Source: a virus
DNA: 32,363 nt
Reading direction: 5' to 3' (one strand)
Virus genome (UHGV): UHGV-0310739
In this document: piece after piece, positions 23,568 through 26,585 of the stretch
Layout of the letters: each line of letters opens with the position of its first letter
Numbering within the stretch: the first letter of the stretch is position 1
The notes under the pieces: model-generated
Database searches by the model: none
Told to the model about the DNA's origin: nothing
Seen by the model: the letters and a program-made list of their open reading frames with translations, nothing else
Translations under genes and position numbers: made by a program

Positions 23568-23924
23568 ATGGCTGGAAATCAGCGTCAGGGGGTGGCGTTC
23601 ATCCGTGTCAATGGCATGGAGCTTGAAACGATGGAAGGGGCCTCCTTCACACCTTCCGGCATCACCCGTGAAGAAGTGACCGGCTCGCGGGTTTATGGCT
23701 GGAAAGGTAAACCACGTGCCGCAAAGCTGGAATGCAAAATTCCGGGCGGTGGTGATATCGGTCTGGATGAAATCATCGGCTGGGAAAATATCACGGCAGA
23801 GTTTCAGGCAGACACCGGTGAAACCTGGATGATGGCGAATGCCTGGCAGGCAGATGAACCGAAAAACGACGGCGGCGAAATTTCGCTGGTACTGATGGCA
23901 AAACAAAGCAAACGCATTGCATAA
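23568..23924 (+). CDS. Tail tube protein (Mu gp40/M)
   Basis: 118 aa; AGGAG RBS; immediately after sheath. Confidence 0.85.
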   Translation: MAGNQRQGVAFIRVNGMELETMEGASFTPSGITREEVTGSRVYGWKGKPRAAKLECKIPGGGDIGLDEIIGWENITAEFQADTGETWMMANAWQADEPKNDGGEISLVLMAKQSKRIA

Positions 23925-23933
23925 GGGGAAACA

Positions 23934-24368
23934 ATGGACGAAATGAATTTAGGTCCTGAAGCACAGGAACTGCATGACAGCATTGTGGCAGAAATTCAGT
24001 CCGGCGTGCTGAAACTGAAAGACGGCCTGCCGTTCGGCACCGGTGACGAGACTGAAATGCAGTATGACGTGACACTGCGTGAACTGACCGCAGGCGATAT
24101 GATTGATGCACAGGCGGCTGCTGAAAAGCTGGTAATGAGCAAGGAAGGTCCGGTGCTGGTCAGTTCCCCGTCCCGGATGGGACTGGAAATGCTGCGCCGA
24201 CAGATTGCCAGCGTGGGCTGCATCAAAGGCCCGTTGTCGATGGCGCTGATTCGTAAGCTGTCTGTCGATGACTTCCAGCGTCTGTCGCTGGCCACAGAAA
24301 TGTACGACATGGCTGTGGCGGCATCGCTGACGCAAGAACGGGGGCGAGTGGCTGCGGTGCCGGAATGA
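23934..24368 (+). CDS. Tail assembly chaperone (Mu gp41 position)
   Basis: 144 aa between tube and tape measure, the conserved chaperone position; acidic. Confidence 0.7.
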   Translation: MDEMNLGPEAQELHDSIVAEIQSGVLKLKDGLPFGTGDETEMQYDVTLRELTAGDMIDAQAAAEKLVMSKEGPVLVSSPSRMGLEMLRRQIASVGCIKGPLSMALIRKLSVDDFQRLSLATEMYDMAVAASLTQERGRVAAVPE

Positions 24369-24512
24369 TATTGAGAAAGCGGCGACAGCGATTGGCGTTA
24401 TTCTGAAAAGTGGCCCGGAATGGGCCTTATCCCTTCCGCTGTCCCGCTTTTTCCGGCACTGCCAGCAGGCTAAAACCCTCTCTCAATATCACCGTTAAAT
24501 CAGGAAATCTCT

Positions 24513-26585
24513 ATGACCGGGAAACGCTTAAAGGCGTCTGTCATTATTGATCTTAATGGCAATCTTTCCCGGCGTTCCCGCCAGTATTCGAACCAGATAA
24601 ACGCCCTGTCCCGTAGCGGACAAAGTTCCCTTCGTGCCCTGCGTATGGAGGTTGTGCGCGTTTCTGGTGCCATTGACAGAATGGGTTCTCTGTCAACCCG
24701 TACATTCCGAATGCTGTCAGCCGGGGCGCTGGGTATCGCTGGCGTGGGTTACACCGCCAATAAACTGTTTATTGGTGCAGCCGCCCAGCGTGAGCAGCAG
24801 ATCATCGCCATGAACTCGCTGTATCACGGCGATAAGGTCAGAGCGCAGGCCATGATGGCCTGGGCGAAGCAGAACGCGAAGGACACCACGTGGGGGCTGA
24901 GTGGTGTTCTTGATGAGATCCGTTCGTCGAAAGGCTTCGGCATGACGGATGAACAGACGAAACAGTTCATCACCATGTTGCAGGATCAGGGGGCCATGCA
25001 CGGCTGGGATTTACCAACTGCACAGGGTGCCTCACTGCAACTGAAACAGATGTTTGCCCGCCAGCAAATCACAGCGGCGGATGCCAACCTGCTGACCGGT
25101 TACGGTATTAACGTTTACCAGACGCTGGCGGATGCACTGGGTAAAGACGTTAAGGATATCCGCAAACAAGGTGAAAAAGGCAAGCTGGGTCTGAAATCCA
25201 TTCTGACGGTATTCAGAACGCTGTCAGAACAGTCAAAAGGTGCACAGGCCAGTGCGATGAACTCCTGGGACGGGATGTTCGCCCAGATGGAAGCTAACCT
25301 GCTTGAATTTCGCATAAAGGTGGCAAACAGCGGCCCCTTTGAAGAAATCAAGAACGAGATGCGCCGGGTGCTTAACTGGCACGACATGGCGGATAAATCC
25401 GGGGAACTTGACGCACTGGCAGAAAACATTGGTCAGAAATTTCTGACCACGTTCAGAACGGTAAAAATCGCGGCGCAGGAATTATGGCGCTGGCTGAAAC
25501 CGGGTAAAGATGCGCTGGCATGGGTTGACCAGAATATTGTCAGCCTGAAAAAACTGGCTGCTGTTCTGGTGTCTGTCTGGCTTGCCAATAAAGCCCTGAG
25601 AGCAGGCTGGGCCGTGGCAAAACCCTCATGGCAGGTTGCCAGTTATCCGTTTAAAACCGGGCGTCGTATGTGGCGCTGGATGCGAAACCGCAAACGTGGG
25701 CAGGCAGGTCTGCCGGTCCCGGATGCCATGACGTCTGAGACGCTGTTGCAGGGTATCGGCATTCAGCGTGTGTTTGTCATCAACTGGCCCCGTGGATTTG
25801 GTGGCTACGGGAGTGGCGGCGGTCGTCGCGGACGGAGCGGCGGAAGAATGGCCCCGCTGTTACCCCGCCAGCCGTTATTGCTGTCCGGGCCACAGCCGCT
25901 GGCATTACCTGCACCACGCCCTGTACTGGCATTACCCCCACCCGGCGTACCGGTAACAGCACGGCCTGCACCATTACCTTTACCCGGTAAATCCGGTCTT
26001 CTGAGCAGGCTTGCAGGCAGTGCTGCCGGGCAACTGGTTACGGGAACGGTCGGAAAGCTGGCTGATGCCGGGCGTGCTGTTGGCGGGTGGTTTTCCGGTA
26101 TCGGAAACAAACTTGCAGGCAGTGCGATCGGTCGGGTTGTGACAAAAGGTGCCGGGGCGCTGGGCTGGATGGGGAAAGGTGCCGGTCGTGCGTTGTCACG
26201 TCTGGGTGGCCCGGTAATGGGGGCACTCCAGCTTGCCCCCGTCCTGATGGATGAGCAGGCGTCAACCCATGAAAAAGCAGGTGCAATTGGCAGTACAGCC
26301 GGTGCATGGCTCGGCGGTGCCGTTGGCAGCCTTGCCGGACCGCTGGGTACGGTTGCCGGTGCCACGCTGGGCAGTGTCGCCGGGGAGTATCTGGGCGGTT
26401 TTGTAACCGACCTGTATCAGAAATGGACGGCCCCGGATAAGGAACCGCAGGAACAAAAAGTGAATGCGGAAGCCTCGCTGCGCGTCGAACTTGGCGAGGG
26501 GTTACGTCTGGCCAGTTCCCGTGTCACCGAGGATGGTATGGGGCTGAATATTTACGCGGGCGATAACTACATTACAGGCTGGTAA
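24513..26585 (+). CDS. Tail tape measure protein (Mu gp42/Y)
   Basis: 690 aa; helical N-terminal half, Pro/Ala-rich linker and Gly/Ala-rich glycine-zipper-like C-terminal region. Confidence 0.9.

What the first reader, a model, noticed from the sequence alone, without database searches (positions are those of the whole stretch)
24331..24512. Start-less open frame fills the chaperone-tape measure gap: candidate programmed frameshift
There is a 144-bp gap between the tail assembly chaperone stop (24368) and the tape measure start (24513), in an operon where genes otherwise abut or overlap. The +1 frame relative to the chaperone is open from 24331 to a TAA at 24496-24498 (about 55 codons, ...RNDIEKAATAIGVILKSGPEWALSLPLSRFFRHCQQAKTLSQYHR) and contains no ATG, the signature of a C-terminal extension reached only by recoding. 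Tail assembly chaperones upstream of tape measure genes are commonly made as short and frameshift-extended forms (lambda G/GT paradigm). The -1 frame is open for only 16 codons past the stop, and I see no canonical X XXY YYZ heptamer, only a CGG GGG CGA run, so the mechanism (+1 or -2) is unclear.
Basis: partly seen in the sequence, partly recalled or inferred. Interest (0 to 1): 0.5.

Follow-up and report, generated by a model that had tools for sequence, protein, structure and literature searches.

The report
Phage Mu tail chaperone -2 frameshift
The "start-less" open frame between the tail chaperone and tape measure genes is real, but it is the already published programmed -2 ribosomal frameshift of phage Mu, which makes a longer version of the tail assembly chaperone, so the finding is correct and not new.

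Summary
Gene 41 (23934-24368) ends 144 nt before the tape measure gene (24513). The +1/-2 frame is open from 24331 to the TAA at 24496-24498 and has no ATG, GTG or TTG. The window is a Mu-group phage (100% identical to Mu_3F6, 97% to Mu). Mu's GenBank record annotates exactly this joined CDS as a "verified -2 translational frameshift in PMID 15469818". The 188-aa -2 product predicted from the window is identical to UniProt P0DJY4 (FS-gp41) and GenBank UIW09302.1. The slip site is CGG GGG CGA (24339-24347). The likely mechanism, which I infer, is that peptidyl-tRNA-Gly slips back two bases on the G5 run and reading resumes at GGC (24343). In 91 of 92 related loci, down to about 31-36% chaperone identity, GGG CGA sits in frame 0 and is followed by a homologous 46-52 codon extension in the same frame. 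GGGGCGA is the only invariant block, the extension frame has the lowest dN/dS, and no conserved RNA structure follows. This is already known, so interest is low. One side observation: some prophage lineages have only four Gs (NAG GGG CGA) and may reach the same frame by +1.

The parts
23934..24368 (+). Gene 41: the short tail assembly chaperone gp41 (144 aa), the product of standard translation
   Evidence: ORF. Pfam PF23746 Gp41_Mu, E = 8e-34. phrog_508 tail assembly chaperone, E = 9e-47. Identical to Mu Mu_41.
24331..24365 (+). Permissible shift window: from the upstream +1/-2-frame stop to the last sense codon of frame 0
   Evidence: Stop map. The median window in relatives is 12 codons. 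It is about 4 codons in the Yersinia prophage L102 and still contains the motif.
24339..24347 (+). Slip site CGG GGG CGA in frame 0. The invariant core GGGGCGA is 24341-24347. tRNA-Gly on GGG (24342-24344) would re-pair with GGG at 24340-24342.
   Evidence: R136-G137-R138 is invariant in the chaperone alignment. GGGGCGA is the only 100% conserved block between -30 and +40 in 64 distinct versions. GGG, CGA and GGC are each 64 of 64 despite synonymous alternatives.
24343..24498 (+). Frameshift-encoded C-terminal extension (51 codons, GEWLRCRNDIEK...SQYHR, plus TAA), the equivalent of the lambda T domain. Joined to residues 1-137 it gives the 188-aa FS-gp41.
   Evidence: Product reconstructed. 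It is identical to P0DJY4 and UIW09302.1. phrog_12783, E = 5e-30. 46 distinct homologous extension peptides. Median dN/dS is 0.29 in this frame against 0.88 and 2.05 in the other two.
24499..24512 (+). The true non-coding spacer, carrying the tape measure ribosome-binding site AGGA at 24502-24505
   Evidence: The Mu record annotates the RBS at the equivalent position. 5 of 14 sites vary within the Mu group, and the only indel seen lies here.
24513..26585 (+). Tape measure protein gene (gp42, 690 aa), the presumed binding partner of gp41 and FS-gp41
   Evidence: Pfam PF20155 TMP_3, E = 8e-16. Annotated as tape measure protein in Mu.
23568..23924 (+). Tail tube protein gene (gpM), the presumed partner of the extension domain by analogy with lambda gpV and the T domain
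   Evidence: Pfam PF10618 Tail_tube, E = 3e-35. Mu annotation. The partner role is inferred from the lambda model described in PMC5009743.

Best explanation
This is the phage Mu gene 41 programmed -2 ribosomal frameshift. Most ribosomes translate gene 41 to its TGA at 24366-24368 and make the 144-aa chaperone gp41. A minority shift when GGG (24342-24344) is in the P site and the rarely used Arg codon CGA (24345-24347) is in the A site. In those, peptidyl-tRNA-Gly slips back two bases on the G5 run to GGG at 24340-24342. Decoding resumes at GGC (24343) and runs 51 codons to the TAA at 24496-24498. The result is the 188-aa FS-gp41 (...QERG-GEWLRCRND...), whose open frame fills all but 14 nt of the apparent 144-nt gap. 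By analogy with lambda gpG/gpGT, the shared N-terminal part coats the tape measure protein and the rare extension recruits tail tube subunits. A fixed low ratio of long to short product is then needed for tail assembly. What is shown here: the anatomy, the identity to Mu, the deposited -2 product, the conservation of the slip motif and of the extension as coding sequence, and the absence of a conserved RNA stimulator. What is taken from the literature: that the fusion is made and that the shift is -2. What is inferred: P-site single-tRNA slippage with CGA as the slow A-site codon, and the division of labour between the two domains.
For: The window is 100% identical to Mu_3F6 and 97.2% to Mu over 23568-24700. 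The window's -2 product is identical to Mu's. That exact sequence is P0DJY4 'Probable tail assembly protein FS-gp41' and UIW09302.1, while the 187-aa +1 version is not in the collection. [quoted passage not shown] A 10-mer of the Mu site alone gave 14% shifting in a purified cell-free system (bioRxiv 10.1101/2025.10.02.679949). Seven distant phage relatives have NGG GGG CGA in frame 0, and in the five annotated ones analysed frame by frame only the +1/-2 frame stays open across the gap. 91 of 92 loci show GGG CGA followed by a 46-52 codon extension. GGGGCGA is the only invariant block. The extension frame has the lowest dN/dS. Within the Mu group, variable sites by codon position 1/2/3 are 2/5/10, the overlap has 0 in 30 nt and the spacer 5 in 14 nt. 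The one indel seen lies in the spacer. G4 and G6 variants of the run are absent from IMG/VR while G5 occurs in 19 contigs.
Against: Nothing in the data contradicts it. Four limits apply. I could not read the primary paper, so '-2 rather than +1' rests on the GenBank note, the UniProt and GenBank protein sequences, and secondary citations. The reporter used in the 2025 preprint cannot tell -2 from +1. A protein with the extra Gly could also arise if RNA polymerase inserted two Gs. The open frame in this single sequence is only modestly significant.
Confidence: 0.95

Rival explanations
1. The extension frame is a separate small gene (annotated '41.5' in phage D108). It would start at the CTG at 24352, use the G-rich run as a Shine-Dalgarno sequence, and give a free 48-aa peptide rather than a fusion.
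For: D108 and E. coli LY180 annotate exactly this ORF (MRCRNDIEK..., P0003). GGGGG lies about 7 nt upstream of 24352. The equivalent codon is TTG (20), ATG (13) or GTG (1) in 34 of 64 distinct relatives.
Against: In the window, as in Mu and D108, the codon is CTG, a very poor initiator, and the whole frame lacks ATG, GTG and TTG. That position is GCG, AAG, GAG or CAG in other lineages, so no start is conserved. The three codons upstream of it (GGC 64 of 64, GAN for D or E 64 of 64, TGG 37 of 64) are conserved as protein, so translation must enter upstream, at the slip site. Invariance of CGA and GGC at sites that could change synonymously is not explained by an SD role. The fusion is reported as verified experimentally.
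Confidence: 0.03
2. The same frame is reached by a +1 ribosomal slip (GGG to GGC, skipping one base) or by transcriptional slippage on the G5 run (one G deleted or two inserted), not by a -2 ribosomal slip.
For: +1 and -2 shifts enter the same frame. Lineages with only four Gs (NAG GGG CGA) cannot re-pair perfectly after a -2 slip. The reporter in the 2025 preprint cannot distinguish -2 from +1, and its authors assume most events of that class are +1. Rare assemblies encode in-frame 187-aa fusions of the +1 type (P0002, P0008).
Against: Mu's record and the reviews state that -2 was verified. The deposited product carries the extra Gly that is diagnostic of -2. The fifth G, which only matters for a -2 slip, is present in 46 of 64 distinct versions and is held at a synonymous site: whenever the residue is Arg its codon is CGG or AGG, never CGT, CGC, CGA or AGA. 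From general knowledge, G5 is short for efficient RNA polymerase slippage in bacteria.
Confidence: 0.04
3. The 144-nt gap is non-coding spacer, or a regulatory RNA, promoter or terminator, and the open frame is there by chance.
For: The single-sequence probability of a 55-codon open off-frame is only about 0.05 with the window-wide stop density.
Against: The frame is open and homologous in 91 of 92 loci across very divergent sequences. dN/dS is lowest in that frame. There is no Rfam match, promoter or terminator. There is no stable or conserved RNA fold.
Confidence: 0.005

Closest known systems
Phage Mu gp41 / FS-gp41 (Mup41; UniProt P0DJY4), the -2 programmed frameshift of Xu, Hendrix and Duda 2004 (PMID 15469818)
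   Same: It is the same element. Nucleotide identity across the region is 97%, both protein products are identical, the slip site CGG GGG CGA is identical, and the stop and spacer are the same.
   Different: Nothing differs functionally. There are a few synonymous or flanking substitutions, for example ACG against ACA at the codon before CAA. The record 100% identical to the window (Mu_3F6) simply does not annotate the long product.
Lambda gpG/gpGT tail assembly chaperone pair
   Same: The gene sits between the tail tube and tape measure genes. [quoted passage not shown] The presumed roles are that the G part binds the tape measure and the T part binds the tube protein (PMC5009743).
   Different: Lambda uses a -1 tandem slip on a canonical heptamer, and its T frame overlaps differently. 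Mu has no X XXY YYZ heptamer, its -1 frame closes after about 12 codons, and the shift is -2 on a G run. Mu has a contractile tail. No sequence similarity to lambda G or T was tested or seen.
P2 gpE / gpE+E' (Pfam PF10109 Phage_TAC_7, 'E, or 41 or 14')
   Same: It is a myovirus tail chaperone in the same gene position. Mu gp41 gives a near-threshold match to the shared Pfam family (23.8 bits against a cutoff of 25).
   Different: From general knowledge, P2 shifts -1 on a T-rich heptamer. The Mu extension has no Pfam match, including to the P2 E' region.
E. coli prfB (RF2) +1 frameshift and arterivirus nsp2TF -2 frameshift
   Same: These are recoding events that reach the +1/-2 frame. As in RF2, the likely event is a single P-site tRNA slip opposite a slowly decoded A-site codon. 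As in nsp2TF, the direction is -2.
   Different: There is no upstream SD stimulator at RF2-like spacing and no stop codon in the A site in Mu. There is no trans-acting protein or downstream C-rich element as in arteriviruses. No conserved stimulator of any kind was found.

Membership tests
Mu gp41/FS-gp41 -2 programmed frameshift | Orthology to the Mu gene 41-42 junction | tested here: met
   97.2% nucleotide identity to Mu and 100% to Mu_3F6. The short and long products are identical to Mu's.
Mu gp41/FS-gp41 -2 programmed frameshift | Slip sequence CGG GGG CGA in frame 0 near the 3' end of gene 41 | tested here: met
   24339-24347. The GGGGCGA core is invariant in 64 distinct relatives.
Mu gp41/FS-gp41 -2 programmed frameshift | The +1/-2 frame is open from the slip site to just upstream of the tape measure start and encodes a conserved domain | tested here: met
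   24331-24498 is open. phrog_12783, E = 5e-30. 46 homologous peptides, and dN/dS of 0.29 against 0.88 and 2.05.
Mu gp41/FS-gp41 -2 programmed frameshift | The fusion protein is actually made and carries the extra Gly (-2, not +1) | not testable with these tools
   This rests on the GenBank note citing PMID 15469818, the deposited sequences P0DJY4 and UIW09302.1 and reviews. The primary paper is not held.
Lambda G/GT-type tail assembly chaperone system | Gene located between the tail tube and tape measure genes | tested here: met
   Tube gene 23568-23924 (PF10618), gene 41 at 23934-24368, tape measure gene 24513-26585 (PF20155).
Lambda G/GT-type tail assembly chaperone system | -1 frameshift on an X XXY YYZ heptamer | tested here: not met
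   No heptamer exists in 24200-24368, and the -1 frame closes at 24404-24406. It works like G/GT but by a different slip.
Lambda G/GT-type tail assembly chaperone system | Protein homology to known tail assembly chaperone families | tested here: met
   PF23746 Gp41_Mu at 116 bits and phrog_508 'tail assembly chaperone'. PF10109 Phage_TAC_7 scores 23.8 bits, just under its cutoff of 25. No solved structure was found by sequence.
Lambda G/GT-type tail assembly chaperone system | The G part binds the tape measure, the T part binds the tube protein, and a fixed low GT:G ratio is required | not testable with these tools
   Inferred from the lambda model (PMC5009743). The Mu efficiency estimates are about 2.2% and 14% in vitro.
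Independent small ORF (D108 '41.5') | Own canonical start codon, conserved among relatives | tested here: not met
   There is no ATG, GTG or TTG in the frame. The candidate codon varies among CTG, TTG, ATG, GCG, AAG, GAG and CAG.
Structured-RNA-stimulated frameshift site (dnaX or IS911 type) | Conserved stem-loop or pseudoknot 5-9 nt downstream of the slip site | tested here: not met
   z = 0.17 and 0.50 against shuffles. RNAalifold predicts 0 pairs over 19 diverse relatives. There is no Rfam hit.

The most novel reading that the evidence does not exclude
Within this one homologous chaperone family the direction of the programmed shift may not be fixed. Lineages with five Gs (NGG GGG CGA: Mu and most relatives) use -2. 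Prophage lineages with four Gs cannot re-pair tRNA-Gly perfectly after a -2 slip, and may reach the same conserved extension by a +1 slip (GGG to GGC) on the invariant GGG CGA core. These are CAG, AAG or GAG GGG CGA, and in the Photorhabdus, Xenorhabdus, Yersinia and Erwinia prophages the motif is followed directly by TAG. If so, the family would be a natural series for asking what sets -2 against +1 directionality.
Probability: 0.3. Interest if true: 0.4.

Novelty: already known. Interest (0 to 1): 0.1.

Why it matters
For Mu itself this adds nothing new: the frameshift was published in 2004 and is annotated in the reference record and in UniProt. There is practical value for annotation. The record identical to this window (Mu_3F6), SfMu, the Yersinia Mu-like phages and the sampled RefSeq E. 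coli prophage copies omit the long product, and D108 miscalls it as a separate ORF '41.5'. The survey here also gives a simple family-wide rule: an invariant GGGGCGA near the chaperone's 3' end, followed by a 46-52 codon +1/-2-frame extension ending at the tape measure start. That rule could be used to annotate the long product in Mu-like prophages. Finally, the survey flags four-G variants that could inform how shift direction is determined.

Tried and rejected
I looked for a downstream RNA stimulator. Single-sequence folds were no better than shuffles, the alignment fold of 19 relatives gave 0 pairs, and there was no Rfam match. I rejected this.

I looked for a promoter or terminator in the gap and found none.

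I looked for a canonical -1 heptamer and found none.

I tried to read the primary paper by PubMed id, but it is not held. A search for the motif string in papers returned only an unrelated RBS in a Burkholderia phage table.

A genome-collection scan with the broad chaperone alignment failed because it had no conserved stretch. I replaced it with a scan using the four-G lineage.

The PDB sequence search for the 188-aa product gave no hits.

I did not run structure prediction. It would not change the verdict, and relatives taken from fetched loci are not accepted as input.

I considered whether the 187-aa in-frame fusion proteins in raw assemblies reflect natural G4 variants. G4 and G6 versions are absent from IMG/VR. 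L036, which lacks one G, also has a second indel, so sequencing error or rare defective copies is the likelier reading.

My first motif-indexing script had an off-by-one error and returned nothing. It was corrected.

Full report
**1. The observation**

The coordinates are right.
- Gene 41 runs from 23934 to 24368 (144 aa, TGA at 24366-24368), and the tape measure gene starts at ATG 24513. The gap is 144 nt, whereas the neighbouring tail genes are 9, 9 and 4 nt apart.
- The frame offset by +1 (equivalently -2) is closed by a TGA at 24328-24330.
- That frame contains no ATG, GTG or TTG.
- The -1 frame closes at 24404-24406, about 12 codons past the chaperone stop.
- There is no X XXY YYZ heptamer in 24200-24368. 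The only homopolymer run of 4 or more is GGGGG at 24340-24344.

On this sequence alone the open frame is only mildly surprising. P is about 0.05 with the window-wide off-frame stop density. It is about 0.003 using gene 41's own +1-frame stop density, my arithmetic.

**2. What it is**

The window is a Mu-group phage. The region 23568-24700 is 100% identical to Escherichia virus Mu_3F6 and 97.2% identical to phage Mu.

The curated Mu record AF083977 carries two CDS that start at the same ATG:
- Mu_41 is the short chaperone.

I reconstructed both possible long products. The -2 product has 188 aa (...TQERG-GEWLRCRND...) and the +1 product has 187 aa (...TQERG-EWLRC...). An exact-sequence look-up found the 188-aa version as UniProt P0DJY4 ("Probable tail assembly protein FS-gp41") and GenBank UIW09302.1. 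The 187-aa version is not in the collection.

The literature agrees:
- The Atkins et al. [quoted passage not shown] 2006.
- PMC3498833 called it, in 2012, the only known natural programmed -2 frameshift, with an efficiency of about 2.2%.
- A 2025 preprint reports 14% shifting for a 10-mer of the Mu site in a purified cell-free system.

Protein family scans fit this picture:

| Part | Match |
|---|---|
| Residues 28-137 | PF23746 Gp41_Mu, E = 8e-34 |
| Residues 1-137 | phrog_508 tail assembly chaperone |
| Extension | phrog_12783, E = 5e-30 |
| Flanking genes | tail tube PF10618 and tape measure PF20155 |

**3. Anatomy of the site**

In frame 0 the sequence reads GAA CGG GGG CGA GTG, with CGG at 24339, GGG at 24342 and CGA at 24345. 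A -2 slip of peptidyl-tRNA-Gly from GGG (24342-24344) lands on GGG (24340-24342) with perfect re-pairing. The next codon is then GGC (24343), followed by GAG TGG CTG and so on. This yields the extra Gly that distinguishes -2 from +1.

The shift must occur between 24331 and 24365, and the G5 run is the only slippery element there. After the extension's TAA only 14 nt remain (24499-24512). They carry the tape measure RBS AGGA at 24502-24505, as annotated in Mu.

**4.

*Distant phage relatives.* These have 31-52% protein identity. They are Vibrio martha and 1.028.O, Pasteurella Pmp9, Klebsiella Kp4866-3, Alteromonadaceae B23, Shewanella MuM16-2, and an E. coli Mu-like element inside an Stx phage.
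- The six for which the gap was measured keep a 107-125 nt gap, and all have NGG GGG CGA in frame 0 near the chaperone's end.
- In all of them the +1/-2 frame runs open to the tape measure start. In the five annotated ones I also checked the -1 frame, and it closes early.
- In the chaperone alignment R136-G137-R138 is invariant while its surroundings vary.

*Larger sample.* I added 80 IMG/VR loci, from 100% down to about 46% identity.
- 91 of 92 loci have GGG CGA in frame 0, followed by a 46-52 codon extension.
- There are 46 distinct extension peptides. They align with a conserved pattern of roughly G-[DE]-W..C...E.AA...G...K.GP.WAL.LPLS.L.R.
- Across 64 distinct nucleotide versions, GGGGCGA (window 24341-24347) is the only fully invariant block between -30 and +40.
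- GGG, CGA and GGC are each 64 of 64. This holds although AGA in place of CGA would be synonymous in both frames, so the constraint acts on the nucleotides and not only on the protein.
- The median width of the permissible shift window is 12 codons. In a Yersinia prophage it is about 4 codons and still contains the motif.

*Selection on the extension.*
- Median pairwise dN/dS over the non-overlapping part is 0.29 in the extension frame. It is 0.88 and 2.05 in the other two frames over the same columns.
- Within the Mu group, variable sites by codon position 1/2/3 are 2/5/10. The 30-nt overlap region has none, and the 14-nt spacer has 5.
- The only indel seen, in E. coli OZ040490, lies in that spacer.

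**5. Stimulators**

I found none.
- Folds of 24339-24440 and 24350-24400 are no more stable than shuffles (z = 0.17 and 0.50).
- RNAalifold on 19 diverse relatives predicts no pairs.
- There is no Rfam match, promoter or terminator in the region.

This agrees with the preprint's result that a 10-mer alone shifts efficiently in vitro. I infer single P-site tRNA-Gly slippage on the G run, helped by slow decoding of CGA in the A site and by quick capture of the new A-site codon GGC. This part is inference.

**6. Function**

By position and family this is the Mu equivalent of lambda gpG/gpGT. In lambda, the G part binds the tape measure protein, the T part binds the major tail (tube) protein, and a ratio of about 30:1 is needed for tail assembly (PMC5009743). 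For Mu these roles are inferred.

It works like G/GT, but it fails the defining -1 heptamer feature. Mechanistically it is its own, already described, variant.

**7. Rivals**

- *Independent initiation.* D108 annotates the extension as a separate gene "41.5" starting at CTG 24352. Against this: the window has no canonical start in the frame, the candidate start position is not conserved, and the G-[DE]-W residues upstream of it are conserved as protein.
- *A +1 slip or transcriptional slippage.* These cannot be excluded with these tools. They are contradicted by the reported verification and by retention of the fifth G at a synonymous site.
- *Chance.* Excluded by the comparative data.

**8. 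Side observations**

- Eighteen of the 64 distinct versions have only four Gs: CAG, AAG or GAG GGG CGA. In the Photorhabdus, Xenorhabdus, Yersinia and Erwinia prophages the motif is followed directly by TAG. After a -2 slip the tRNA would face AGG, so a +1 slip to GGC may be used there. This is the most novel reading left open.
- Rare in-frame 187-aa fusions occur in raw assemblies. L036 lacks one G and also has a second indel. These look like sequencing errors or defective copies, because G4 and G6 variants are absent from IMG/VR while G5 occurs in 19 contigs.
- 44 of 5,426 complete E. coli genomes carry this junction. In the sampled records the annotation lists only the short chaperone and the tape measure protein.

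**9. Verdict**

The feature is already known, so interest is low.

Noticed in passing
L043, L046-L052, L054, L062-L066, L069, L074, L080, L089, L090 (IMG/VR); L092-L104 (Photorhabdus, Xenorhabdus, Yersinia and Erwinia genomes), at the chaperone 3' end: These lineages have four Gs instead of five at the slip site (CAG, AAG or GAG GGG CGA). In the Photorhabdus-type prophages a TAG follows immediately. The homologous extension is still in the +1/-2 frame. Perfect -2 re-pairing is impossible there, so a +1 slip may replace -2.
   Followed up: partly
Proteins P0002 and P0008 (Logan assemblies); locus L036 around 1883: Single ORFs encode a 187-aa in-frame fusion of chaperone and extension (...QERGEWLR... 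and ...QERGQWLR...). L036 has a G4 run plus a second indel further on. G4 and G6 variants of the Mu run are absent from IMG/VR, while G5 occurs in 19 contigs, so these look like homopolymer sequencing errors or rare defective copies.
   Followed up: partly
Window 24352-24498; D108 locus L002 1285-1431: D108 (gene '41.5') and E. coli LY180 annotate the extension as a separate 48-aa ORF starting at CTG. Mu_3F6, SfMu, the Yersinia Mu-like phages and the sampled RefSeq E. coli prophage copies do not annotate the long product at all. The frameshift product is widely under-annotated or mis-annotated.
   Followed up: yes
Window 24352 (extension codon 3) and the equivalent position in relatives: The fourth extension codon is TTG (20), CTG (16), ATG (13) or GTG (1) in 50 of 64 distinct versions, and it lies about 7 nt after the G run, which resembles a Shine-Dalgarno sequence. 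A minor independently initiated T-only peptide in some lineages is not excluded. The position is dual-coding and the lineages are not independent, so I did not over-read this.
   Followed up: partly
L104 (Erwinia tracheiphila, second copy), about 1600-1690: The extension switches frame midway: the +1/-2 frame loses homology and the -1 frame picks up ...LKGGPVWALGLPLSKL.... This points to an indel and a probably decayed prophage copy.
   Followed up: no
L124 (E. coli OZ040490) against window 24508-24509: A 1-nt insertion lies in the 14-nt spacer between the extension's stop and the tape measure ATG. This is the only indel seen among close relatives in 24320-24520.
   Followed up: yes
Window 25800-26400 (inside the tape measure gene, about aa 430-620): The tape measure protein has a Gly/Arg-rich stretch ([15 protein letters not shown]), a long Pro-rich stretch ([45 protein letters not shown]) and a weak glycine-zipper match. 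The GC-rich DNA here leaves long spurious ORFs open on the minus strand (for example 25805-26365, 186 aa).
   Followed up: no
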